DNA of 64,000 nt from positions 32,001-96,000 of the IMG/VR virus record IMGVR_UViG_3300007747_000009; one strand, written 5' to 3'. Positions 33,911 to 64,000 of this stretch are shown here, one piece after another. The notes beneath the pieces are model-generated. The model ran no database searches and was not told the DNA's origin. It was given only the letters and a program-made list of their open reading frames with translations. Position 1 is the stretch's first letter. Each line of letters begins with the position of its first letter. The DNA is from a virus (lineage: Duplodnaviria > Caudoviricetes). Both the position numbers and the translations under genes were made by a program.

Positions 33911-34557
33911 AAAATATACAATCTTTATTATTTTATTTTGAAATGATCAATCAATGGCGTGGATTTTCAAATATGCAGAGCATATTTTCACTAACCCCTA
34001 GTGTCAAATATGCTAAGATGTTTGACGAAGTATATTACGGTTTAAGTCATGAACAAAGTAAGTACGAACTATATATTACTTCTAATAAAAATACTGGTGC
34101 TATTGGTTTTATGGTTGAAGACAGGGATTTAAACGCTCCAGTACTATTTGGTAATCTTCAGGATTGGGGAAATTCTACTAGAATGTATCCAGAATGGATG
34201 AAGGTTCAAATGGAATCAACACAATTAGCTTTTTATGATAAAAATAATAAAATAATAATGAACGTAGATCCTGAAATATTGGAAGAAGAACACTTCCAAC
34301 TAATGATGATTCATGATTTACCACCATTCGAAACATTACATAAAGCAATTGATGTTAATAATTACTTACGACCAATAGCTAAGAAACACAAAATTGGATT
34401 TTCAATAGATTATGCACATCTAGATATGGACTTTACTTATTTTTTTCCTAGTAATAAAGCATTCGATATTATCGATTCTGTATATGGTAATGCATTACAA
34501 TTATATTATGAGGCAGAAGAACATGGCAATCCCTTCAACTACTACGTTATATCATGA
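33907..34557 (+). CDS. FQxS-family paralog
   Basis: EEEHFQLMMIH. Confidence 0.8.
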   Translation: MKNIQSLLFYFEMINQWRGFSNMQSIFSLTPSVKYAKMFDEVYYGLSHEQSKYELYITSNKNTGAIGFMVEDRDLNAPVLFGNLQDWGNSTRMYPEWMKVQMESTQLAFYDKNNKIIMNVDPEILEEEHFQLMMIHDLPPFETLHKAIDVNNYLRPIAKKHKIGFSIDYAHLDMDFTYFFPSNKAFDIIDSVYGNALQLYYEAEEHGNPFNYYVIS

Positions 34558-35674
34558 GTTATTAGAACTTTGTAACAAAAATGAAGCATTTTATTTTAAT
34601 GATTCAGTATCAAAAGGTGGTGGTAAATATCGCACCTTTACATACCGGTTAGCATCATATACTGACTTCTTACAGCCAAGTGCTTTGAGTTGTCGTGGTA
34701 CTATGTTTGAAATCGATGAAAACGGTAATACAATCCGTATGGCATGTCGTACTCCACAGAAATTTTTCAATGCGTACGAAAATCCTATGGTCATGTTCCC
34801 TACCGATTTACTCAGTACTGAAATCACCCTCGCAATGGATAAACGTGACGGTTCTATTATCAGTACTTTTATGGATAATGATAAAGTTATCCGTACTAAG
34901 TCTCAAACATCGATGCACAGCGAACATGCGGTGAATTCTACGGCTTTAATCCACGCCGATGATGAATTGCACCAAGGAATCATTGAAGCTGACAGCGAGG
35001 GTTATACGGTGAATTTGGAATATACTTCCCCTGAGTTCAGAATTGTGTTACCATATCAAACTGATGAATTGGTGGTATTAAATCTACGTCACCGCGAAAC
35101 GGGTGAGCTATTGGCAGGTGAAGAGTTAAAAGCTCGTTTCCCTGTTCTATACAACAAATCAGTATTTTCTTTGTATGGAAATATTGACAAAACCTTCCCG
35201 ATGTGTAATACTATCAGGGAATCTGTTGATGCAGTTTTCCGTATGACTGATATCGAGGGTTTTGTCGTGCAACTTAAAGATGGAACCATGTTTAAGATCA
35301 AGACTGATTGGTATTGTGCATTACACTTCCGAAAGGATAGTATTAATGTGGATTCCCGATTATATGAAGTAGTACTAGTAGGTGCATCAGATGATTTACG
35401 TCAAATGTTTGCAACTGATCAGTACTGTCTTGATAAAATTGCACGAATGGAAAAGCTAGTATTTTCAACATACAATCATTTACAAACTGAAGTTGAAGAG
35501 TTTGTGGAGAAGTACAAAAAACTTGGTCGAAAAGATTTTGCATTACAGGTACAACTGGATTTGTCCAAAAAACTCAATCGTCAAGGATTAGCTTTTGCAC
35601 TATATAATGGCAAGAAAGTTGATTACAAAGAAGTAATGTTGAAGTACATGAGAGATGTGTTAGAAAACTTCTAA
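34523..35674 (+). CDS. rnlA: RNA ligase 1 (T4 Rnl1/gp63-like)
   Basis: YRLASY..F, CRGTMFE, KFFN, KRDGSII (motif I), EY.SP..RIV, EGFV, FKIKTDWY. Confidence 0.9.
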   Translation: MAIPSTTTLYHELLELCNKNEAFYFNDSVSKGGGKYRTFTYRLASYTDFLQPSALSCRGTMFEIDENGNTIRMACRTPQKFFNAYENPMVMFPTDLLSTEITLAMDKRDGSIISTFMDNDKVIRTKSQTSMHSEHAVNSTALIHADDELHQGIIEADSEGYTVNLEYTSPEFRIVLPYQTDELVVLNLRHRETGELLAGEELKARFPVLYNKSVFSLYGNIDKTFPMCNTIRESVDAVFRMTDIEGFVVQLKDGTMFKIKTDWYCALHFRKDSINVDSRLYEVVLVGASDDLRQMFATDQYCLDKIARMEKLVFSTYNHLQTEVEEFVEKYKKLGRKDFALQVQLDLSKKLNRQGLAFALYNGKKVDYKEVMLKYMRDVLENF

Positions 35675-36196: not shown

Positions 36197-36466
36197 ATGA
36201 AATTATATGTAACTCACAGTATCATTCGCGATATGTCCGTAGTTAAATTTTTCTCATTAGATGATTATCGTCGTTGTATAGCTTTCTTGCATAAAGAGAA
36301 GCAGGAATGGATCCCATTAAAATATAGTTCAAAAAATAACACAGCCAGTATTCGGGTAGGTGAAGTTGAATTGAATTGTATTATCAATAAATTTGGAGAT
36401 AAACAAAATGCCAGTACTAACACTAACAGTGGGACTACCGGGTTGCGGGAAGACGACGTGGGCTAA
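36197..36466 (+). CDS. hypothetical protein
   Basis: AGGAG RBS. Confidence 0.6.
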   Translation: MKLYVTHSIIRDMSVVKFFSLDDYRRCIAFLHKEKQEWIPLKYSSKNNTASIRVGEVELNCIINKFGDKQNASTNTNSGTTGLREDDVG

Positions 36467-37337
36467 CGAACAAGTTCGCACTGCAAAATCTAAAACCGTA
36501 AACGTCAACCTTGATGACGTTCGCCAGACAATGGCAGGTACACATAGTAACTACAAATTCCGTAAAGATAACGAAGAGTACGTACGTTCGGTACAGTGCA
36601 GTTCAGCGGAATATGCAGTTCAAAATAAATGGAACATCGTTGTATCTGACACAAACTTGAATCCTGAAGTACGCAAGAAATGGAAAGAGTTCGCAACGGA
36701 ACACGGATATACTTACAAAGAACATAACTTTTTTACAGAGTACAAGAAAGATAAAACTTTTGAACACGAATTCTTTGCTATCAAAGGCTTCGTTAAACAA
36801 TGTAAAGAACGTAACCTTCTTCGTGAGAAATCAGTACCTGAATCAGTAATCGATGATATGGCAGAAAAGTACTTGTACACTTTTGATAAAGTTATGAATA
36901 CTCCCGAAGTACTTGCTAGTACTGAAGAATATATCATCGTTGATGTTGATGGTACGGTTGCACACATGCATAACCGTAGTCCTTACAACGAAACCAAAGT
37001 CCGTGATGATCTTCCAGATCCTGAAGTAATCCTTTCAGTACTAGCTGAAAAGAACTACTTGGGTCGTAAGGTTATCGTGTTCAGTGGTCGTAAAGAAGCA
37101 ACGATGGAAGATACGAAAGCATGGTTCAACGATCATAATGTTCCATATGACTTTATGTTCATGAGGGCAACCGATGACAACCGCAGTGATGATATCGTAA
37201 AATATGAGTTGTATATGCAGCATGTTTATGGTAAGCTTAACGTTGTTAAAGTTTATGATGACCGGGAAAAAGTTTGCCAAATGTGGAGAGAATTAATCGG
37301 TCTTAAAGTCTTTCAAGTTGAGCCGGGGAAATTTTAG
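36408..37337 (+). CDS. pseT: polynucleotide 5'-kinase/3'-phosphatase
   Basis: P-loop GLPGCGKTT; HAD motif DVDGT; SGR, DDR. Confidence 0.93.
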   Translation: MPVLTLTVGLPGCGKTTWANEQVRTAKSKTVNVNLDDVRQTMAGTHSNYKFRKDNEEYVRSVQCSSAEYAVQNKWNIVVSDTNLNPEVRKKWKEFATEHGYTYKEHNFFTEYKKDKTFEHEFFAIKGFVKQCKERNLLREKSVPESVIDDMAEKYLYTFDKVMNTPEVLASTEEYIIVDVDGTVAHMHNRSPYNETKVRDDLPDPEVILSVLAEKNYLGRKVIVFSGRKEATMEDTKAWFNDHNVPYDFMFMRATDDNRSDDIVKYELYMQHVYGKLNVVKVYDDREKVCQMWRELIGLKVFQVEPGKF

Positions 37338-37990
37338 TTTTTAAATTTACATTTATTAAAATGGTAGCGGGTCATGTTTGGTCCCGCACCATTCTTTAAG
37401 CAATGTGGACATTCTTGTGTTGGGAACACCCGACCATTATTAGCAGCACTAATTTTAGCTTTAGCTTCATCTGATGTTTTCTTACCGAGTCTGGATGGAA
37501 CCCATAAAGGATTATTTTCTCTCTTTTCCTTCATTGAACGTTTAGCTTCATCTGACAACTTAACACCAGATTTAGTACTGCTAATCTTTTTCTTTGTCTC
37601 TTCAGTTATAACTTGTTTAGCACGAGCAGCTTTCAACTTAGCTATATGTTCAGGTGATAATTTTCTACCTGTCATACCACGAGATTGTGGTCTGTTTGAA
37701 TTATAATTACGCTTAATCCATCCAAATAATTTATTATTATTACGTCTACCATTTGGTTCGATAGTCATCATAAACAAAGCATACTTAAGACCTTTATGCT
37801 CTGGGTAAATTTTAACCAATAACTGGTGTGCTAAAAAGTGTTCTTCCGGTGTTAATGCTACCATATTATCTTTTGTATCAGCTCCACCAAAACATTTAGG
37901 AATGATGTGGTGTTTTTCTGTGTACTGATTTTCTAATAAATTTGTTTTTCTTTTATTCATCAGATTATCATAGATTTTATTGTAATTCAT
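37334..37990 (-). mobile_element. free-standing HNH homing endonuclease with NUMOD3 repeats
   Basis: HHIIP..GG.D..N.V.LT.EEH..AH; three GxKxSxExxxK repeats; C-terminal CPHC...H..C; AGGAG RBS. Confidence 0.88.
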
Positions 37991-56485: not shown

Positions 56486-57598
56486 ATGAAAGAAAAAGTT
56501 TATGTATATATTGGTCGTTTTCAAATGACCCACGCTGGACACGAAGCAGTACTAAAACACGCTGTACAACATGCAGATCGTGTAGTATTATTAGTCGGTT
56601 CGTCTGACATTGCCCGTGACCCAAAAAATCCATTTACTTTTGAGGAACGTAAATCCGTCCTCGAAGCAATGACACAGCGTATTGCCAGTGAAGAATGGTC
56701 TAATGGACGCTCAGTAACTATCAATATTCTACCAATCCATGACTACACGTATAACAATACGAAGTGGCTAAAAGAAGTACAAAAACAAGTTAAATCAGTA
56801 ACAAAAAGCACTGATATTACTCTTGCTGGGTGTCGTAAAAAAGGTGACAGCAGTACTTTCTATCTTGATTTCTTCCCTCACTGGAAGCAAGACTTCATTG
56901 ATGAAGTACTAACAGTAAATCACGCAGTACCAGTTGAATACCGTGAATTGGATGAGAAAGTCAATCCTGCCCCTGCATTTAACAGTACTACATTGCGTAA
57001 TCAATATTTCAGTACTAAACAAGTTCCATCTGGTCTACCAGTTGAAACAACAGAATTTCTTGAAAAATTTAAAGTACGCAGCAGTGATATTTTAGATAAT
57101 TTAGTCAGTGAACACAATTTTGTAGCGAGCTATCGTAAACAAATGATGGAAACTCTACCATACACAAACATTCCATTCCTTACTGGGGATTCATTAGTTG
57201 TGTGTGCTGGTCATGTTCTATTAGTGAAACGTCGCTCACATCCGGGTAAAGGTCTTTGGGCATTACCGGGTGGATTCTTTGATGCTTGGGTTGACCAAAA
57301 CCAGACTGATACCGCACTACGTGAACTCAAAGAAGAAACTAAAATTGATGTTCGTTTCAAAGAACTTAAAGGTTCAATTGTAAAAGTAGATGAATTTGGT
57401 GATTTCAATCGTTCTCTACGCTGGCGTATCATTACCAAATGTGTTTATATTAAACTCAATGGTAATAAGCTACCAAAAGTAAAAGGAAGTGATGATGCAG
57501 AGAAAGCATTCTGGATTCCACTATCAGAAATTACGGCAAACCGCCATATGTTTTTTGAAGATCATTACTCAATAATTGACACAATGATTGGTCTATAA
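56486..57598 (+). CDS. nadM: bifunctional NMN adenylyltransferase / ADP-ribose pyrophosphatase (NadM-Nudix, NatV-like)
   Basis: GRFQ.THAGH, KNPFTFEER, NSTTLR; Nudix box PGG...ALRELKEET, GSDDA..A.W, FEDH. Confidence 0.92.
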   Translation: MKEKVYVYIGRFQMTHAGHEAVLKHAVQHADRVVLLVGSSDIARDPKNPFTFEERKSVLEAMTQRIASEEWSNGRSVTINILPIHDYTYNNTKWLKEVQKQVKSVTKSTDITLAGCRKKGDSSTFYLDFFPHWKQDFIDEVLTVNHAVPVEYRELDEKVNPAPAFNSTTLRNQYFSTKQVPSGLPVETTEFLEKFKVRSSDILDNLVSEHNFVASYRKQMMETLPYTNIPFLTGDSLVVCAGHVLLVKRRSHPGKGLWALPGGFFDAWVDQNQTDTALRELKEETKIDVRFKELKGSIVKVDEFGDFNRSLRWRIITKCVYIKLNGNKLPKVKGSDDAEKAFWIPLSEITANRHMFFEDHYSIIDTMIGL

Positions 57599-57599
57599 T

Positions 57600-58139
57600 A
57601 TGTTATACTGCCTAACGCGTGATTTATATGATGACATTATGATTATGAGTGAACATATTCATAGTAAGTATGATGAAACGAATTGTATGTTTATACCTTT
57701 TTTGCCTGAACATGTAAGGATATGTTCAACATTTTCCTTGCAGACGTACGCTGCAAAAAAGATATATGATTCCATGCTTTGGCAGTACTCAACATTTATT
57801 GTAAGAAACTGGATCAGTACTTTACATCCGTTTGAGGGTTTAATTACTGATCTGGATTTTAAACACAGAGAAACTGATCACGGATTTTGGGAATATAAGT
57901 TTTCTCATTGCACTCATGATAAAGTGTATTTTAGTAAATCTTATTTCTCGAGTGAAATTTCGGTAGTTGGTGGAGTTCCATACTATAATGTAGACGATGG
58001 GCTACTTAAAAAGGAATATACAATTACTGAGATTGCAAAAAGTAACCAGAAATTTAAAATGGACGCCGTTTTTCCCCCAAACCCAAATATGTTTAGTGGA
58101 GCGGACGTGGAATATATTATTCCTTACTCATTAATATAA
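57600..58139 (+). CDS. hypothetical protein
   Basis: ORF between nadM and nadV. Confidence 0.7.
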   Translation: MLYCLTRDLYDDIMIMSEHIHSKYDETNCMFIPFLPEHVRICSTFSLQTYAAKKIYDSMLWQYSTFIVRNWISTLHPFEGLITDLDFKHRETDHGFWEYKFSHCTHDKVYFSKSYFSSEISVVGGVPYYNVDDGLLKKEYTITEIAKSNQKFKMDAVFPPNPNMFSGADVEYIIPYSLI

Positions 58140-58187: not shown

Positions 58188-59657
58188 ATGAACGAATTAA
58201 ATGTAAACCTAATCCTAAATGCTGACTCATATAAAGTTGGTCACAAATCAATGATTAAACATGGTGTCAAAGCTATGATGGGTGTAATTACTGGTCGTAA
58301 GAGCAGCAAATATACTTCTCATTTGACCTTTAAAGGCATTCAATATACAATCAAACGTTACATTGATATCCAAATTACTGAAGCTGATATTGATGAAGCT
58401 GAGTTGGAAGTAACAGAACAAGGTGGACGTTTCGACCGTACCCCTTGGGAAAAGATTGTAAAGGAACATAATGGTAAATTACCTATTCGTATCCGTGCTC
58501 TACCAGAAGGTACGGTTGTACCGGTTGGTGTACCACTTGTAACAGTTGAAGCAGTTGGTGAAGAATTTGCGTTCCTATCAGCTTATGTTGAAACTTGTAT
58601 TCAACGTGGTGTTTGGTTCCCTACGACCGTAGCTACTAACGCTCGCAGCATCAAAGAAATACTAATTGAAACAATGCTACGCCATGCTGGTCATAAATTT
58701 GTAAACTATCATCTTCATAATTTTGGAGATCGCAGTGCACATGTTTATGAAGCAGCTATTGTTGCTGGTATGGCACACGCAGTATACTTTGACGGTTCGG
58801 ATTCTCTAGTAACTAACCGTTACATTAAAAAGTACTACAATACTAAAAAATCATATCTTTCTTCAGTAGATGCGTCTGAACATTCAGTATCGTGTTCTAA
58901 TGCTGATGCAGACAAACGTGATGATTTTAATATGGCACTAAAAATGGTTCGCCATTGGGAAGACCAAATTGATCAACACAATATCGATGGTAAAGGAACT
59001 ACTGTAACATCAGTAGTGATTGATACATACGATGCTAAACGTTTTGCTCGTGAGTATATCGGTACTCGTTTGAAAGATACAATTGTTGAAATCGGCACTA
59101 CTAAAGGTGGTCGTTTAGTACTACGCCCTGATAGTGGTAATCCAGTAACAATGCCAATTGAAATCCTTGAAATCCTACTAGAGAAGTTTGGATACACGGT
59201 GAACGAATTTGGTTATAAAGTACTACCAAGTTTTATCGGTGTTCTACAAGGTGATGGTATCAATGAAGAAAGTATTCGTGATATTATTGCGTTACTTGAT
59301 GAGAAGAAAATCTCAATTGAGAACATTGTATTTGGTATGGGTAGTAAATTGGTTGACCCAGAAGGAGGTCGTGATCTATTCAGCTTCGCAATGAAATCTG
59401 TTGCACAGCTAGAAGAAGATAACAAGTGGAAAGACCTATTCAAAGATCCAATTACTGATGTTGGTAAACGTTCCCTACGTGGTCGTGTAACTACTTACAA
59501 ATGTAAGGTAACTGGTAAAATCTTTGCAGAACGTGTAGAACTTCAAGAAATTAACAAACAGCTAGAGGATATGCTAGTTGATATGTACGTGAATGGTATT
59601 ACCATGAACGAAAGTAATTTTGATGAAGTGCGTGAGCGTGCAAACAAATATCTATAA
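58188..59657 (+). CDS. nadV: nicotinamide phosphoribosyltransferase
   Basis: DSYKVGH, HNFGDR, ASEHS, VIDTYD, RPDSG, QGDG, FGMG, KDPITD.GK.S..G. Confidence 0.93.
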   Translation: MNELNVNLILNADSYKVGHKSMIKHGVKAMMGVITGRKSSKYTSHLTFKGIQYTIKRYIDIQITEADIDEAELEVTEQGGRFDRTPWEKIVKEHNGKLPIRIRALPEGTVVPVGVPLVTVEAVGEEFAFLSAYVETCIQRGVWFPTTVATNARSIKEILIETMLRHAGHKFVNYHLHNFGDRSAHVYEAAIVAGMAHAVYFDGSDSLVTNRYIKKYYNTKKSYLSSVDASEHSVSCSNADADKRDDFNMALKMVRHWEDQIDQHNIDGKGTTVTSVVIDTYDAKRFAREYIGTRLKDTIVEIGTTKGGRLVLRPDSGNPVTMPIEILEILLEKFGYTVNEFGYKVLPSFIGVLQGDGINEESIRDIIALLDEKKISIENIVFGMGSKLVDPEGGRDLFSFAMKSVAQLEEDNKWKDLFKDPITDVGKRSLRGRVTTYKCKVTGKIFAERVELQEINKQLEDMLVDMYVNGITMNESNFDEVRERANKYL

Positions 59658-59727: not shown

Positions 59728-60399
59728 ATGAAATGGTCTGATTTTAAAGCACGGTTACCAGAGTTTGTGATTCCATTACACGATAAAAAATGGACACTTG
59801 AAGAGTTTAAAAAAGGAATCATTGAACTTAATGATTTTGATATGAATGATCCAGATGATGTGGAAGAATATGAACATGACATTGACTTGGATTCTGACGG
59901 TGCTATAATCGTTGGTAAACCGTCTGGTGATGATTGGACAATCGGAATGATGTTTGGATTCCAAAACTCTGATGGTTGGTTGGACGATACATCGTCAATT
60001 GAGTACATTACACAGCGTCACTGGAAAGAACTCGAAGAACATAATCTAGTTGACTTGCGGTCAATGGAAAGTTATATTGCAGTACTAACTGGTAATTTAA
60101 CATCCAATGAGTTTGATGATCTTAAAGGTGATAAACTAAGTAAAGAAGTGATTTTGTTTATGTCTGAACTAATTGGTCAATCATTATTCAGTACTAACTC
60201 AATCGACGTATCTAGTACTGCTGATTGTAAAAAATTTATTATTGATGCGTACAATAGCAAAGTAAAACGTGTCAAAAAAGAAAAATGGGGTAACTTAGAA
60301 TTCCGTCTTTTTGAAGATGAAGATGGTGAACAGTACACAATTGTAAGTTATAAAGATAAATTAATTTCACACTATCCGTTTAGTTACACTGAGGATTAA
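59728..60399 (+). CDS. hypothetical acidic protein
   Basis: AGGA RBS. Confidence 0.8.
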   Translation: MKWSDFKARLPEFVIPLHDKKWTLEEFKKGIIELNDFDMNDPDDVEEYEHDIDLDSDGAIIVGKPSGDDWTIGMMFGFQNSDGWLDDTSSIEYITQRHWKELEEHNLVDLRSMESYIAVLTGNLTSNEFDDLKGDKLSKEVILFMSELIGQSLFSTNSIDVSSTADCKKFIIDAYNSKVKRVKKEKWGNLEFRLFEDEDGEQYTIVSYKDKLISHYPFSYTED

Positions 60400-60787: not shown

Positions 60788-61207
60788 ATGTCTGTACAAT
60801 TTAAAAGTTCACCACTTCATAAGTCTAACATTATTAGACTAGCCAGTATGTATAAGGATCTCAATAATCCCGAAATAAGTAGTTTTGATAGAGAACGTGC
60901 ATATTTTAGATATGCACATCTGGAAGAGTTGATTACTAATCAATTACCTAAAGTTGATATAGAAACCGGACACGTAACTGGACTAACAAAATTACATGAT
61001 GGGTACACATTTAAAATTAATAATAAAAAGTACTTTTACCGTAACACAAATGAATCCAGTAACTTCTTTCCATACAATCCGTACATAGTTTCGGTTTACA
61101 ATGGAGGACAATATGAAGATGGGACTAATATTTTATATATTATCAAACAGGAACGTTTTGAACGAGATGTAGTTGTTCTTATGGGTAGTATATCTGAGGT
61201 AACGTAA
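60788..61207 (+). CDS. hypothetical protein
   Basis: Clean ORF. Confidence 0.7.
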   Translation: MSVQFKSSPLHKSNIIRLASMYKDLNNPEISSFDRERAYFRYAHLEELITNQLPKVDIETGHVTGLTKLHDGYTFKINNKKYFYRNTNESSNFFPYNPYIVSVYNGGQYEDGTNILYIIKQERFERDVVVLMGSISEVT

Positions 61208-61209
61208 AC

Positions 61210-61638
61210 ATGCCATTTTCGCCGCTTTGCACGGTTTTCACGGATTTCGCCAATTACAAACTTAATCATTTGTGTAAAGTAATTCACACGTTAGTTAAGG
61301 ATTCTTCTGAAATTTCGTTATTTTTAGAACATTTTAATGAGTATAAAGAATCAATTGTACTATCAACACCATCAGCTATTGAAAGTATTGCTATATCAAG
61401 AGAATACGATAATTCTACAACTTATATAATTTGTTTAACTGATACTAAGATTCGTATCAACAATATGGGTGATGGAACTAGAAATGGTTTGAATCCAGTG
61501 TATGGGAATGAAGTTTTATCGGCGTTTGTTTACTCAGTACCCAATTGTGATATAAAATATTTACATATAATAACTGATGTTTCTGTGTTCATGTACCGGG
61601 GTAAAATCTCTATAGAATCCAGTAAATACGGTATGTAG
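61210..61638 (+). CDS. hypothetical protein
   Basis: GAGG RBS. Confidence 0.65.
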   Translation: MPFSPLCTVFTDFANYKLNHLCKVIHTLVKDSSEISLFLEHFNEYKESIVLSTPSAIESIAISREYDNSTTYIICLTDTKIRINNMGDGTRNGLNPVYGNEVLSAFVYSVPNCDIKYLHIITDVSVFMYRGKISIESSKYGM

Positions 61639-61657
61639 AACATAATAAGGATATAAA

Positions 61658-62104
61658 ATGGCAGGAAACGGATTTGTTGCTTTGAAGCTTGATGCATCAC
61701 AGGGACGAGAGATACAAAAAATATTTAAGACAGCCGGAATAAAATGCTTGACACCATCTGAATTTCATGTTACTGTTATATACGATGAGTCAGATCCAGA
61801 GATCGATCTTCTTTCGAACACAAAAACATACGAAGCAAAGATCACTGGGATCGAGCGTTTAGGCAAAAAGGGATCGAAGTACGAGGCAATAGCTCTGATA
61901 CTTAAATCACCACAGATCGATAAACGACACAAAGAGTTGAAGAATGCTGGATTTAAGCATAAGTACCCAGATTTTAAGTGCCATATGAGTATTGTATATC
62001 AACCATCTAGTACAGATGAAGATATTCTCAAACTAGTACATGATCTTGGAGTACTACCTAAAACTCTTAAATTTGGTAAGGAATATATGGGAAAAACAAA
62101 GTGA
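61658..62104 (+). CDS. acb1: Acb1-like (T4 gp57B) 2H phosphoesterase, anti-CBASS nuclease
   Basis: Two 2H motifs, FHVTVIY and CHMSIVY, spaced and flanked as in T4 57B (H....AG..H....F..H....Y). Confidence 0.8.
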   Translation: MAGNGFVALKLDASQGREIQKIFKTAGIKCLTPSEFHVTVIYDESDPEIDLLSNTKTYEAKITGIERLGKKGSKYEAIALILKSPQIDKRHKELKNAGFKHKYPDFKCHMSIVYQPSSTDEDILKLVHDLGVLPKTLKFGKEYMGKTK

Positions 62105-62111
62105 GGATCTA

Positions 62112-62873
62112 ATGGATTTACAAAAGTTTTTGGATAACAAAGGTAAAAAAAGACTATTAGTAGTATCTGGTGCTGGACTATCTGCTGAATCGGGGATTAG
62201 TACTTTTAGATATGATGAAGACGCTTTATGGGAAAATACCAATGTCAATCATGTTTGTAATATCGCGAACCTTTCTTCTCATTATTTTACAGTCCATTCA
62301 TTTTATAACACATTGCGTGTAAACTTGAAGGATAAACAACCTAACGCTGCTCATCATACGATAGCTGAATTAGAGAAACAATATGGTGATGATCTATTCT
62401 TACACATTACTACTAATGTAGATGATCTATATGAACGTGCAGGTGGTACAGCTATGCACTTACATGGCGATCTTTTAGAGGTAATCGAGAACTATTCACT
62501 AGCTGATAACTCATATAAAGTTGTGAATGTAGGATACAATGCTTACATTCCAAAAGACGGTGTATATGCAAAGCCTAATATAGTAATGTTCGGGGAGTAT
62601 GAACGTTACGTTGGTGGTGATCGTGTAAATTTATATGAAGATAGGAATAAAGTACTTGCATCATTAACAGATCTTGATACAGTACTTATTATTGGTTCAT
62701 CTGATACAGTAATTAAATGGTCGATGATGATAGGTTGCTCGCCAGCGTACACTTACAATGTTAACATTCGCAAGAGTGCTAATGATTGGATGTTCACTGA
62801 GAAAATCTATGAACCTGCATCTAAGGCCATCCCACAAATAAAGAATGCTGTATTATTGAGGATGGATTTATGA
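62112..62873 (+). CDS. Sir2/CobB-family NAD-dependent deacylase
   Basis: SGAGLSAESGISTFR, PNAAH, TTNVDDL.ERAG, HLHG, KPNIVMFGE, IGSS. Confidence 0.9.
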   Translation: MDLQKFLDNKGKKRLLVVSGAGLSAESGISTFRYDEDALWENTNVNHVCNIANLSSHYFTVHSFYNTLRVNLKDKQPNAAHHTIAELEKQYGDDLFLHITTNVDDLYERAGGTAMHLHGDLLEVIENYSLADNSYKVVNVGYNAYIPKDGVYAKPNIVMFGEYERYVGGDRVNLYEDRNKVLASLTDLDTVLIIGSSDTVIKWSMMIGCSPAYTYNVNIRKSANDWMFTEKIYEPASKAIPQIKNAVLLRMDL

Positions 62874-63238
62874 GTGTTACAGTTAAAACATTTGTACTAT
62901 ATGGGACGGACGTAGATATTTCTAATTTTGATACGTCTAAATTTGCCGATAAAGAGGAATATGTTGATTACTTATATGATGTAATTAACAAGAATGATTC
63001 ACCATATAAATTGATATATGATGAAGATACTGATTCACATTGCTTTGGTTATGTAATTGATGAATCAATTGATAGTAATTGGGAAAGCAAGTACTTAAAG
63101 AGTACTACTTTTTCTGAAATGCGTAGCCATATAACAGATAACGTGCGTGAAGCATTGGACTGGATCTTAATGCTTCAGTTTGACAAACGCTCAAAGAATT
63201 GTTATATTGATTATAGGATATTGACAGTTTATTGCTAA
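62870..63238 (+). CDS. hypothetical protein
   Basis: Coupled ORF. Confidence 0.7.
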   Translation: MSVTVKTFVLYGTDVDISNFDTSKFADKEEYVDYLYDVINKNDSPYKLIYDEDTDSHCFGYVIDESIDSNWESKYLKSTTFSEMRSHITDNVREALDWILMLQFDKRSKNCYIDYRILTVYC

Positions 63239-63247
63239 GAAGGTAGA

Positions 63248-63805
63248 ATGGAATATAAAGAACTACCATTTGGAACACGCAGTCCTAAACATGATTGTGT
63301 GTTCGTTTGGATATATGCAAAAAACTGTACACCTTACCAGAACTACCCATACAATGATATTCCAAATGTAACGTTGATGTTGAGCGAACTACGCTGGGAT
63401 GGTTTGATGGGTGGTGTTGGTGGGGCAGTAGAAACTGACGATATTTCGTTAGAAGAAGCAGTTAAACGAGAAGCATGGGAAGAAATTCATTACGACTTAC
63501 CAGTCGGACGTCTTGAACCACTACTCACCTTAAAGAATTTTTCAGGATCACACAACCATAGTTTCTCATTAGAAGTATCTTATGAGGAATTAGTACAGAT
63601 CCGTAATAACGCTCACTTAGGTGAGCACTTCAGTGCCGAAAATGCTGGAGTTAACTTAGTTCATATTTGTAGATACATGAAGCCCAATAAGGTTGAGTGT
63701 GGTTACAAATGGTTCTTAGAACAACAGTTTATCGGTTCGTCAAAGCAGGAGTTAGAGTACTTGGTAGATACCAAGGGCTTGCTTGTAAATTATACAGGAA
63801 AATAA
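63248..63805 (+). CDS. Nudix hydrolase, NUDT16-like
   Basis: RWDG.MG..GG.VE....LEEAVKREAWEE Nudix box; C-terminal FLEQQFIGSSKQEL. Confidence 0.8.
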   Translation: MEYKELPFGTRSPKHDCVFVWIYAKNCTPYQNYPYNDIPNVTLMLSELRWDGLMGGVGGAVETDDISLEEAVKREAWEEIHYDLPVGRLEPLLTLKNFSGSHNHSFSLEVSYEELVQIRNNAHLGEHFSAENAGVNLVHICRYMKPNKVECGYKWFLEQQFIGSSKQELEYLVDTKGLLVNYTGK

Positions 63806-63806
63806 A

Positions 63807-64000
63807 ATGTATAAGATGTTTCTAGATGACTTGCGGGATGCTGAAAAGTACTACCCCAATCAAGGTTTTGTAACAATGAGAACGTATTATGATGCTGTTG
63901 AATACGTGAAGGAACATGGTGTTCCTGAAATGATCTCGTTTGATCATGACCTTGGGGATGAAGCAAGTGATGAAATGACCGGATACAGTTTCGCAAAATT
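63807..64000 (+). CDS. cyclic-phosphate-processing receiver-like domain protein (partial)
   Basis: MYKMFLDDLRD...RTYYDAVEY...ISFDHDLG...TGY; runs off the window; not in the ORF track. Confidence 0.7.
   Translation, partial: MYKMFLDDLRDAEKYYPNQGFVTMRTYYDAVEYVKEHGVPEMISFDHDLGDEASDEMTGYSFAK

What the first reader, a model, noticed from the sequence alone, without database searches (positions are those of the whole stretch)
63248..63805. Phage Nudix with close resemblance to animal NUDT16
Seen: HDCVFVWIYA...LMLSELRWDGLMGGVGGAVE...SLEEAVKREAWEE...SYEELVQI...FLEQQFIGSSKQEL...GLL. From my memory of NUDT16/X29 (HACHALLYA...LMQMRFDGRLGFPGGFVD...SLEDGLNRELREE...FLENSFIGSAREQL...GLL), the match extends well outside the Nudix box, at both termini. 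Established: NUDT16 decaps RNA, hydrolyses IDP and trims ADP-ribose from modified proteins. Inference: located near a sirtuin, Acb1 and NAD salvage genes, it may erase ADP-ribosylation by host defence toxins (DarT- or CmdT-type) or remove NAD caps, which would be an undescribed counter-defence.
Basis: partly seen in the sequence, partly recalled or inferred. Interest (0 to 1): 0.75.

Follow-up and report, generated by a model that had tools for sequence, protein, structure and literature searches.

The report
Jumbo-phage NUDT16-family Nudix paired with cREC
This giant-phage gene encodes an intact pyrophosphatase of the NUDT16 enzyme family, but that family is widespread in bacteria and phages, the gene belongs to a sirtuin–Nudix–cREC block already described in 2022, and its real substrate is still untested.

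Summary
The ORF at 63248-63805 (+, 185 aa) is real. It is a member of Pfam Nudt16-like (PF22327, E 2e-14). Its AlphaFold model (pLDDT 97) matches only NUDT16/X29/TIRR at TM about 0.8, and all metal- and phosphate-binding residues are kept.

"Close resemblance to animal NUDT16" overstates this. Identity is about 25%. The family has at least 193 clusters in phages, bacteria (mostly Campylobacterota, some Clostridia) and protists. The phage clade nests among viral and bacterial members, and an AU test rejects a phage+animal clade (p 0.007). The base-reading residues also differ: His24→Phe, Gln170→Glu, and the GFP motif is GGV.

The strongest clue is context. The next ORF, 2 nt after the stop, is a cREC domain. 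In 9 of 15 related jumbo-phage loci, Nudix and cREC are one polypeptide. Zn-less Sir2→Nudix→cREC→membrane protein→PIN-PhoH2 is conserved in 15 of 15.

Iyer et al. described this block in 2021 and 2022 as a predicted NAD/ADP-ribose or RNA-repair system. No experiment was found.

My best reading (about 0.4): with cREC, it strips AMP from an ADP-ribose-type product of the phage sirtuin.

The DarT/CmdT "eraser" idea is weak, because NUDT16 chemistry leaves a phosphoribosyl stub on the target.

The scan had already noted this block on other genomes.

The parts
63248..63805 (+). NUDT16-family (PF22327) Nudix pyrophosphohydrolase, 185 aa. The Nudix helix is R74-E75-x-x-E78-E79. Also present: R49, D51, G58-G59 and E131.
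   Evidence: ORF; Pfam; PDB phmmer; PHROG 9999, E 3e-81; AF2 pLDDT 96.8; Foldseek; residue mapping
63807..64000 (+). N-terminal 64 aa of a 109-aa cREC (cyclic-phosphate processing receiver-like) protein. It starts 2 nt after the Nudix stop (TAA-A-ATG) and continues to window-equivalent position 64136 (L002:2060-2389). In 9 of 15 related loci it is fused to the Nudix as one protein of about 300 aa.
   Evidence: PF20274 E 1.5e-23; junction sequence; fused homologues P0004, P0025, P0039; split/fused count
62112..62873 (+). Divergent Zn-less sirtuin. The ORF opens at 62040, and the start is probably the Met at 62112 by comparison with relatives. It carries TTNVD and HLHG motifs and has no Cys after the catalytic His. 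It sits directly upstream of the Nudix, and the two genes overlap, in 121Q, RaK2 and GAP32.
   Evidence: PF02146 E 7.5e-24; NCBIfam CobB models all far below cutoff; sequence; synteny
62870..63238 (+). 122-aa ORF of unknown function inserted between Sir2 and Nudix only in the Munch/7t3-like lineage.
   Evidence: No Pfam, PHROG or NCBIfam hit; present in 5 of 15 related loci at 48-51% identity
61658..62104 (+). 2H phosphoesterase of the Acb1 family, with both H-x-T/S motifs present (FHVTV, CHMSI). It is an accessory member of the block, found in 13 of 15 loci and absent from 121Q and RaK2.
   Evidence: PF23474 E 2.4e-17 and PF13563; PHROG 755

Best explanation
The gene encodes a catalytically competent NUDT16-family Nudix pyrophosphohydrolase. 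It works as one half of a two-part enzyme with the cREC domain encoded immediately downstream; the two are split here and fused in GAP32-like phages. The pair acts after the phage's own Zn-less sirtuin. The sirtuin consumes NAD+ and makes an ADP-ribose-type product. This could be free ADPr, an ADPr phosphate or cyclic phosphate as in the Tpt1/KptA reaction, or ADPr joined to an RNA end. The Nudix buries the adenosine, cuts the pyrophosphate and releases AMP. NUDT16-type binding leaves the distal ribose exposed, so a substituted or bulky ribose is tolerated. cREC, which keeps a receiver-like Asp pocket, then removes or opens the phosphate left on the ribose part. The net effect is clean-up or recycling of ADPr-derived products during infection, within an RNA- and NAD-centred block that also holds a 2H esterase and a PIN-PhoH2 RNA helicase/nuclease. 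Shown here: the fold, the intact catalytic site, the gene fusion and the synteny. Inferred: the substrate, the order of steps and the biological purpose.
For: The catalytic and phosphate residues of NUDT16 are all kept and are invariant or nearly so across 135 family members. R50/D52/E76/E79/E80/E136 correspond to R49/D51/E75/E78/E79/E131 (residue roles from PMC4485890). The adenine-pocket residues Ile164 and Ser166 are kept as I162 and S164. Glu168 replaces Gln170 and can accept a bond from the adenine N6. The mouth residue Phe61 is Ala60, giving an open mouth (PMC6459841). Nudix and cREC are one polypeptide in 9 of 15 jumbo-phage loci and are separated by 1-22 nt or overlap in the rest. Sir2-Nudix-cREC-TM-PIN/PhoH2 is in the same order in 15 of 15 loci across at least four genera, with Sir2 and Nudix overlapping in three. 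The sirtuin is unlike CobB deacylases (no Zn cysteines, NCBIfam scores a third of cutoff). The phage already has a separate NadM-type ADPr/NAD Nudix, so this one is not redundant salvage. Independent published comparative genomics reached the same model (PMC7824862 section 3.4.8; PMC9503650 sections 3.4.5 and 3.7.3).
Against: No biochemical data exist for any member of the phage clade. Human NUDT16 is a poor free-ADPr enzyme (Km about 0.8 mM, PMC6459841). Elsewhere in the family the partners point to 6-oxopurine or other nucleotide housekeeping: a Ham1/ITPase fusion, HD_4 fusions, an HD_5 neighbour in 39 of 80 bacterial loci, and a dUTPase neighbour in L098. The phage also has a T4-type Pnkp+Rnl1 pair, which produces no 2'-phosphate, so a Tpt1-like step is not obviously needed. 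The AF2 model of the fusion shows two domains on a floppy linker (pTM 0.66) and no composite active site. cREC activity is itself only predicted.
Confidence: 0.42

Rival explanations
1. RNA 5'-end decapping enzyme. Like NUDT16 on NAD-, FAD-, dpCoA- or ADPr-capped RNA, it removes a nucleotide cap from host or phage RNA, while the tethered cREC deals with 2',3'-cyclic phosphate 3' ends. Together they would form an RNA end-healing or RNA-turnover enzyme working with PIN-PhoH2.
For: NUDT16 and X29 are RNA decapping enzymes, and NUDT16 removes metabolite caps (PMC7337524, title and abstract listed). cREC occurs in RNA-repair settings, for example next to a tRNA nucleotidyltransferase and an HD hydrolase in Aeromonas phage CC2, and the literature links it to RNA ligases (PMC9503650). 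A PIN-PhoH2 RNA helicase/nuclease is conserved two genes downstream.
Against: The jumbo-clade proteins are acidic (median pI 4.95; K+R 17 against D+E 26 in this protein), with no evident basic RNA-binding surface. Giant-virus decapping Nudix proteins are not structural neighbours (TM 0.5 or less). The phage's canonical RNA-repair pair lies 27 kb away, not in this block.
Confidence: 0.18
2. Degrader of host ADP-ribose-based immune signals. Nudix+cREC would destroy TIR- or Thoeris-type messengers (2'cADPR, 3'cADPR, His-ADPR, N7-cADPR) or toxic ADPr derivatives. This would be an enzymatic counter-defence sitting beside Acb1 and the NARP2 genes.
For: The gene lies in a region with an Acb1-family 2H esterase and Nampt+NadM. 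Iyer et al. propose cREC and Nudix as cADPr-processing enzymes (PMC7824862). Enzymatic degradation of cADPR signals by other phage proteins has recently been reported (PMC13232231, abstract).
Against: The invariant partner is the phage's own sirtuin, not the anti-defence genes. 2H is missing in 121Q and RaK2, and NARP2 is not adjacent in 121Q. No link to any defence system was found.
Confidence: 0.12
3. Nucleotide-pool sanitiser. As with mammalian NUDT16 on (d)IDP/ITP/XDP/GDP, it removes deaminated or otherwise unwanted purine nucleotides, possibly countering ATP-to-ITP deaminase defences (RADAR, Cad1).
For: Family members are fused to Ham1/ITPase (P0089) or HD_4. They neighbour HD_5 in Campylobacterota and dUTPase in viral locus L098. 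The region in related phages also holds dCMP deaminase, thymidylate kinase and RNR. ITP-producing defences exist (PMC11645235).
Against: None of those partners occurs in the jumbo clade, where the fusion partner is cREC and the neighbour is Sir2. The GFP motif proposed as the 6-oxopurine signature (PMC4485890) is G-[AGST]-[VI] in this clade.
Confidence: 0.12
4. One reading: it erases ADP-ribosylation placed on DNA, RNA or protein by host toxins (DarT, CmdT and similar).
For: Human NUDT16 cleaves the ADPr pyrophosphate on proteins and on thymidine-ADPr DNA whatever the linkage (PMC8883491, PMC12879935). The open mouth (Ala60 for Phe61) would admit bulky conjugates.
Against: The reaction leaves phosphoribose on the target, so the base or residue is not restored. 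Known erasers of DarT and CmdT marks are macrodomain or NADAR enzymes. There is no genomic link to such systems, and the coupling is to the phage's own sirtuin.
Confidence: 0.08

Closest known systems
Type-1 sirtuin-centred gene neighbourhood of jumbo phages (sirtuin + 2H + Nudix + cREC + PIN; Serratia phage BF prototype), Iyer, Burroughs, Anantharaman, Aravind 2022 (PMC9503650, section 3.7.3); cRec/Nudix in Iyer et al. 2021 (PMC7824862, section 3.4.8)
   Same: It has the same genes in the same order, including the Nudix-cREC fusion in the GAP32/BF lineage. The window's phage is a relative of the same phage group.
   Different: Here Nudix and cREC are split by a stop codon, and a 122-aa ORF is inserted between Sir2 and Nudix. 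Those papers never mention NUDT16 (0 occurrences of the word) and state that most phage Nudix domains fall in T4 NudE or NadM clades. T4 NudE itself does not match the Nudt16-like model.
Animal NUDT16 / Xenopus X29 (U8 snoRNA decapping enzyme, (d)IDP diphosphatase, ADP-ribose trimming enzyme)
   Same: It matches the same Pfam family and the same fold over the whole length (TM about 0.8). The metal, catalytic and phosphate residues are identical, and the C-terminal helix that forms the base pocket is conserved.
   Different: Identity is about 25%. It is not sister to the animal clade (AU p 0.0067). His24 is Phe19, Gln170 is Glu168, the GFP motif is GGV and Phe61 is Ala60. It is partnered with cREC and Sir2, which have no counterpart in animals.
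Aeromonas T4-like phage 'NudE' proteins (Aeh1, PX29; a homologue in phage 4_4572 is auto-named 'U8 snoRNA-decapping enzyme' in UniProt)
   Same: They are also PF22327 members in large myoviruses (BFVD rank 2, TM 0.71).
   Different: Identity is about 31-33%. They lie next to rIIB and not next to Sir2 or cREC. The 'NudE' label is loose, because T4 NudE is not PF22327.
T4 NudE (gene e.1), the only biochemically characterised phage Nudix of this size class (FAD, Ap3A, ADP-ribose)
   Same: It is a Nudix hydrolase of a large myovirus, and ADPr is among its substrates.
   Different: It matches only the generic PF00293 model. Similarity to the window protein is limited to the Nudix box (BLASTP 34 residues; hhalign 71 columns).

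Membership tests
Nudix superfamily | Nudix box with the REx2EE helix and upstream Gly residues | tested here: met
   The sequence G55-x2-G58-G59-x-V-E62 followed by R74-E75-A-W-E78-E79-I-H is present. PF00293 gives E 7e-7. The terminal Gly of the box is His.
NUDT16-like family (Pfam PF22327) | Score above the curated family threshold over the full domain | tested here: met
   54.1 bits against a cutoff of 27, residues 17-172 matching model positions 2-154 of 161.
NUDT16-like family (Pfam PF22327) | NUDT16 fold, including the N-terminal strand and the C-terminal base-pocket helix | tested here: met
   The AF2 model has pLDDT 96.8. The top 39 PDB chains are NUDT16/X29/TIRR at TM 0.74-0.84, and the next family is at 0.57.
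NUDT16-like family (Pfam PF22327) | Catalytic, metal and phosphate residues Arg50, Asp52, Gly59, Glu76, Glu79, Glu80, Glu136 | tested here: met
   They correspond to R49, D51, G58, E75, E78, E79 and E131, invariant or at least 90% conserved in 135 sequences (roles from PMC4485890).
Animal NUDT16 orthologue group | Base-contact residues His24, Gln170 and the GFP motif (Phe57) | tested here: not met
   The phage has Phe19, Glu168 and G55-G56-V57. His occurs in only 4 of 135 sequences and Gln in 14 of 135. The three named animal sequences have His, and two of them also have Gln.
Animal NUDT16 orthologue group | Phylogenetic grouping with animal NUDT16 | tested here: not met
   The jumbo clade nests in a 95* viral/metagenomic clade beside Clostridia-type sequences. 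Holding jumbo and animal sequences together costs 35 lnL units, AU p 0.0067.
Animal NUDT16 orthologue group | Activities: RNA decapping, IDP hydrolysis, ADPr trimming | not testable with these tools
   This needs enzyme assays.
Jumbo-phage sirtuin-2H-Nudix-cREC-PIN neighbourhood (Iyer et al. 2022) | Sirtuin directly upstream, cREC directly downstream or fused, PIN-domain protein nearby, 2H nearby | tested here: met
   Sir2 is at 62112-62873, cREC starts at 63807, PIN+PhoH2 begins at window-equivalent 64494, and 2H is at 61658-62104. The order is the same in 15 of 15 related loci.
T4 NudE clade | Full-length similarity to T4 gp e.1 | tested here: not met
   T4 NudE hits only PF00293, and the pairwise match is restricted to the Nudix box.
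Canonical ADP-ribose pyrophosphatases (NudF, NUDT5, NUDT9, NadM-Nudix) | Closest fold or sequence neighbour is an ADPRase | tested here: not met
   NUDT9 appears at TM 0.59 and rank 42. The phage's NadM-Nudix (56486-57598) is a separate gene.

The most novel reading that the evidence does not exclude
Nudix and cREC together form a two-step enzyme of a kind not yet characterised. The Nudix removes AMP from an ADP-ribose moiety, and the receiver-like cREC then removes or opens the remaining ribose phosphate. This would let the phage fully dismantle host ADP-ribose-based immune messengers or ADP-ribose adducts or caps on nucleic acids. It would be a new enzymatic counter-defence and the first demonstrated catalytic role for a receiver-fold domain outside phosphorelay.
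Probability: 0.15. Interest if true: 0.7.

Novelty: new member of a known kind. Interest (0 to 1): 0.3.

Why it matters
NAD+ and ADP-ribose chemistry is a central battleground between phages and bacterial immunity. Several phage answers are now proven: NARP1-3, Tad sponges and Acb1. The sirtuin–Nudix–cREC block is conserved in a whole group of 350-kb enterobacterial phages, yet no experiment on it was found in the searched literature. Knowing that its Nudix is the NUDT16 type narrows the substrate search. This type buries the adenosine and leaves the distal ribose free, so it accepts conjugated or substituted ADP-ribose and capped RNA. That gives a concrete, cheap assay panel. The analysis also corrects two annotation habits: calling these proteins 'NudE', and treating NUDT16 as an animal enzyme. 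In itself the gene is an expected member of a block already described.

Tried and rejected

2. The search for related loci with the broad alignment A1 failed because it had no conserved stretch. I replaced it with sub-alignments A2 and A3.

3. The genome search 'relatives' is not available for a virus record.

4. The idea that this is simply a T4 NudE homologue is rejected.

5. The apparent independent Nudix-cREC fusion in Tunturiibacter phage Tunturi_5 is rejected. The gene is a 128-aa standalone cREC mislabelled 'nudix hydrolase'.

6. The promoter/terminator scan is at chance level (38 found against 36.7 expected). An 11/12 sigma-70-like site at 63180-63208 upstream of the gene is only a hint.

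7. The AF2 model of the natural fusion was made to look for a shared active site. It gave two domains on a low-confidence linker and pTM 0.66, so it is uninformative beyond tethering.

8. NCBIfam has no model for the Nudix, cREC, 2H or the 122-aa ORF.

9. Literature searches for experimental work on phage NUDT16-like, cREC or this sirtuin found only the two comparative-genomics papers.

Full report
**1.
A single ORF runs from the ATG at 63248 to the stop at 63803-63805 on the + strand (185 aa). A good ribosome-binding site (AAGAAGG) lies just upstream.

Pfam places it in Nudt16-like (PF22327) at E 2.3e-14. The score is 54 bits against a cutoff of 27, over residues 17-172, far beyond the Nudix box. 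The generic NUDIX model scores less.

A phmmer search of all PDB sequences returns human NUDT16 first (E 1.4e-9). Xenopus X29 follows (7.5e-9), then the inactive paralogue TIRR/syndesmos. Other Nudix proteins appear only at E above 0.3.

An AlphaFold2 model built on 135 homologues is very confident (pLDDT 96.8, pTM 0.92). In Foldseek against the PDB, the first 39 chains are all NUDT16, X29 or TIRR at TM 0.74-0.84. The next family, a CoA pyrophosphatase, is at TM 0.57.

**2. Where the window comes from.**
The window is part of a 108.9-kb IMG/VR fragment, about 31% complete. The phage belongs to the RaK2/GAP32/121Q group of roughly 350-kb enterobacterial jumbo phages.

The nearest deposited genomes are Salmonella phages Munch, 7t3 and SE_PL and Klebsiella phage fENko-Kae01. 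They share 73.6% nucleotide identity over this region and 80.5% amino-acid identity for the Nudix.

Eighty-one phage records carry a homologue. Seventy-one cover at least 80% of the protein, and these are mostly jumbo phages of this group. Ten are T4-like Aeromonas phages with a weak match of about 31-33%. PHROG 9999 ('nudix hydrolase') matches at 3e-81.

**3. NUDT16-like is not the same as animal-like.**
An exhaustive profile search of 1.8 billion cluster representatives found 193 clusters at E ≤ 1e-3. A tick NUDT16 scored about 54 bits, whereas many unnamed metagenomic proteins scored 60-180 bits.

Named members include NUDT16 from three animals (a tick, a stink bug and a nematode), two marine protist transcripts and NCBI bacterial entries. 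A pattern scan of one genome per prokaryote species confirmed 122 chromosomal homologues. Most are in Campylobacterota (Sulfuricurvum, Sulfurimonas, Arcobacteraceae), with some in Clostridia and Obscuribacterales.

In an IQ-TREE of 50 labelled sequences, the jumbo-phage clade lies inside a well-supported (95*) viral/metagenomic clade. That clade groups with Clostridia-type sequences, and the animals form their own 95* clade elsewhere. Forcing phage and animal sequences into one clade costs 35 log-likelihood units and is rejected (AU p 0.0067).

NUDT16 tops the PDB lists because no bacterial or viral member has been solved. Public resources already make the link. Pfam PF22327 is precomputed on the phage homologues, and UniProt names an Aeromonas phage homologue 'U8 snoRNA-decapping enzyme'.

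**4. The active site.**
I mapped the residues defined in the NUDT16-IMP and NUDT16-ADPr structures (PMC4485890, PMC6459841) through the 135-sequence alignment, which contains animal NUDT16.

The metal, catalytic and phosphate residues are all present and invariant or nearly so:

| Human NUDT16 | This protein |
|---|---|
| Arg50 | R49 |
| Asp52 | D51 |
| Gly59 | G58 |
| Glu76 | E75 |
| Glu79 | E78 |
| Glu80 | E79 |
| Glu136 | E131 |

. The enzyme should therefore be active.

The purine pocket is kept in outline (Ile164 = I162, Ser166 = S164), but the two side chains that read the base differ. His24 is Phe19, which is Phe in 128 of 135 sequences and His in only 4, including the three named animal sequences. 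Gln170 is Glu168, which is Glu in 111 of 135.

The 'GFP' motif, proposed as the signature of 6-oxopurine preference, is G-G-V here. It is G-[AGST]-[VI] throughout the jumbo subfamily. The 'mouth' residue Phe61 is Ala60.

A carboxylate at the Gln170 position can accept a hydrogen bond from adenine N6 or from N1-H of hypoxanthine or guanine. Sequence alone therefore does not settle specificity. The protein is acidic (jumbo-clade median pI 4.95).

**5. Context is the most informative evidence.**
Two nucleotides after the Nudix stop (TAA-A-ATG), a 109-aa ORF begins and runs off the window. It is a cREC domain, a 'cyclic-phosphate processing receiver' (PF20274, E 1.5e-23).

In GAP32, CBB, Serratia phage BF, fHe-Yen9-04 and several metagenomic relatives, Nudix and cREC form one protein of about 300 aa, with Nudix N-terminal.

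Across 15 related jumbo-phage loci the order is always Sir2, Nudix, cREC, a small membrane protein, then PIN-PhoH2. Nine loci have the fusion and six are split, as the window is. The 2H/Acb1-like gene is present in 13. A 122-aa ORF between Sir2 and Nudix occurs only in the Munch-like lineage. In 121Q, RaK2 and GAP32 the Sir2 and Nudix genes overlap.

The sirtuin is atypical. It has TTNVD and HLHG motifs and no Zn-binding cysteines, and its NCBIfam CobB scores are a third of the cutoffs. The 2H protein keeps both H-x-T/S motifs and passes the Pfam Acb1 threshold.

A NadM-type NMNAT-Nudix fusion (56486-57598) and Nampt (58188-59657) lie 4-7 kb upstream and form the NARP2 pair. This phage therefore already has a conventional ADPr/NAD Nudix.

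A T4-type Rnl1 (34484-35674) and Pnkp (36393-37337) lie 27 kb upstream.

The AF2 model of the natural fusion shows two folded domains joined by a low-confidence linker (pLDDT 86, pTM 0.66). This indicates tethering rather than a demonstrable joint active site.

**6. What the rest of the family does.**
Outside the jumbo clade the partners are different. One homologue is fused to Ham1/ITPase, two are fused to HD_4, and one to ankyrin repeats.

In Campylobacterota an HD_5 (HD-GYP type) gene follows directly in 39 of 80 loci. In a distant viral contig (L098, 30% identity) the gene sits beside a dUTPase, an exoribonuclease, Dam and gyrase B, with no Sir2 or cREC.

This suggests a general nucleotide-housekeeping background for the family. 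The Sir2/cREC association looks like a derived specialisation of the jumbo clade.

cREC itself is wider than the Nudix, occurring in 153 phage records. It also occurs in RNA-repair settings, for example next to a tRNA nucleotidyltransferase in Aeromonas phage CC2.

**7. Prior description.**
Iyer et al. 2021 (PMC7824862, section 3.4.8) defined cRec and proposed that it opens cADPr or 2',3'-cyclic phosphates. In their scheme Nudix then converts the linear ADPr to AMP.

Iyer et al. 2022 (PMC9503650, sections 3.4.5 and 3.7.3) describe this neighbourhood. [quoted passage not shown] They propose that the sirtuin acts like KptA/Tpt1 on RNA 2'-phosphates and that the other enzymes process the cyclic ends or the resulting ADPr>P. 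They state that cREC is experimentally uncharacterised.

Neither paper mentions NUDT16, and both group phage Nudix proteins as 'T4 NudE' or 'NadM' types. I tested that grouping. T4 NudE matches only the generic NUDIX model and resembles the window protein only in the Nudix box. The Aeromonas 'NudE' proteins, by contrast, are PF22327 members. I found no experimental paper on this phage Nudix, its sirtuin or cREC.

Earlier notes of this scan had flagged the same block on other genomes. One follow-up reached the same 2022 paper.

**8. Mechanism.**
The best-supported reading has the Nudix and cREC acting as a bipartite enzyme after the phage sirtuin. The sirtuin spends NAD+ and yields an ADP-ribose-type product. 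The NUDT16-type Nudix buries the adenosine and leaves the distal ribose exposed (PMC6459841), so it can cut AMP off even if that ribose is phosphorylated, cyclised or attached to something. cREC then handles the phosphate on the ribose fragment. I put this at about 0.42.

The rivals are:
- RNA 5' decapping coupled to 3' cyclic-phosphate healing (0.18)
- destruction of host cADPR-type immune signals (0.12)
- purine-nucleotide sanitising such as IDP/ITP, perhaps against deaminase defences (0.12)

The last is weakest for three reasons. NUDT16 chemistry leaves a phosphoribosyl stub on the target (PMC8883491, PMC12879935). The known erasers of such marks are macrodomain or NADAR enzymes. Nothing in the genome ties the gene to such toxins.

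**9. Verdict.**
The 'animal' flavour reflects which members have been solved and characterised. The gene block is already in the literature as a prediction, so this is a new member of a known kind.

The useful additions are the NUDT16-type binding mode and the diagnostic residue differences (Phe19, Glu168, G-G-V, Ala60). They make the substrate question directly testable.

**Limits.** No coordinates of the models could be inspected, so residue mapping rests on alignments.

Noticed in passing
window 62870-63238 (+): A 122-aa ORF with no Pfam, PHROG or NCBIfam match is wedged between Sir2 and Nudix, but only in the Munch/7t3/fENko-Kae01-like lineage. It is 48-51% identical among relatives whose flanking genes are about 80% identical, so it is a fast-evolving insert in an otherwise tight operon.
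   Followed up: partly
window 62112-62873 (+): The sirtuin has no cysteines after the catalytic HLHG motif, so it lacks the Zn ribbon. It has TTNVD in place of the usual TQNxD, and its scores are only a third of the NCBIfam CobB cutoffs. It is probably not a conventional protein deacylase. The listed ORF start at 62040 would overlap the 2H gene, and Met25 (62112) fits relatives better.
   Followed up: partly
window 56486-57598 and 58188-59657 (+): An NMNAT-Nudix fusion (NadM/NatV type) and Nampt form a NARP2-type NAD+ reconstitution pair. Unannotated ORFs lie between and after them (57588-58139, 59728-60399, 60788-61638).
   Followed up: partly
window 34484-35674, 36393-37337 (+) and 37334-37990 (-): A T4-type RNA ligase 1 and a Pnkp (kinase + HAD phosphatase) form the classical tRNA-repair pair. 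An HNH/NUMOD3 homing-endonuclease-like ORF lies on the opposite strand right after Pnkp.
   Followed up: partly
P0089, P0105, P0166, P0172; loci L007-L086: The Nudt16-like domain occurs fused to Ham1/ITPase, to HD_4 and to ankyrin repeats. In Campylobacterota chromosomes it is followed by an HD_5 (HD-GYP type) gene in 39 of 80 loci. This points to a bacterial NUDT16-like nucleotide-housekeeping role; I did not search the literature for studies of it.
   Followed up: partly
L100:3983-4369 (Tunturiibacter phage Tunturi_5) and L006:1543-2094 (Aeromonas phage Aeh1): Two annotation slips were seen. A 128-aa standalone cREC is labelled 'nudix hydrolase', probably by transfer from fused homologues. 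Aeromonas phage 'NudE' proteins are PF22327 members, unlike T4 NudE itself.
   Followed up: yes
L001 (Klebsiella phage fENko-Kae01 record notes): The depositors mark the 2H protein, Nampt, the adenylyltransferase, the small membrane protein and the PhoH-like ATPase as detected by LC-MS/MS. Sir2, Nudix and cREC carry no such note. The kind of sample analysed is not stated in the record.
   Followed up: no
window 63180-63208 (+): A sigma-70-like site (TTGACA, 17 nt, TATATT, with a TG extension; 11 of 12 matches) lies inside the end of the 122-aa ORF, about 40 nt upstream of the Nudix start. The scan as a whole is at chance level.
   Followed up: no
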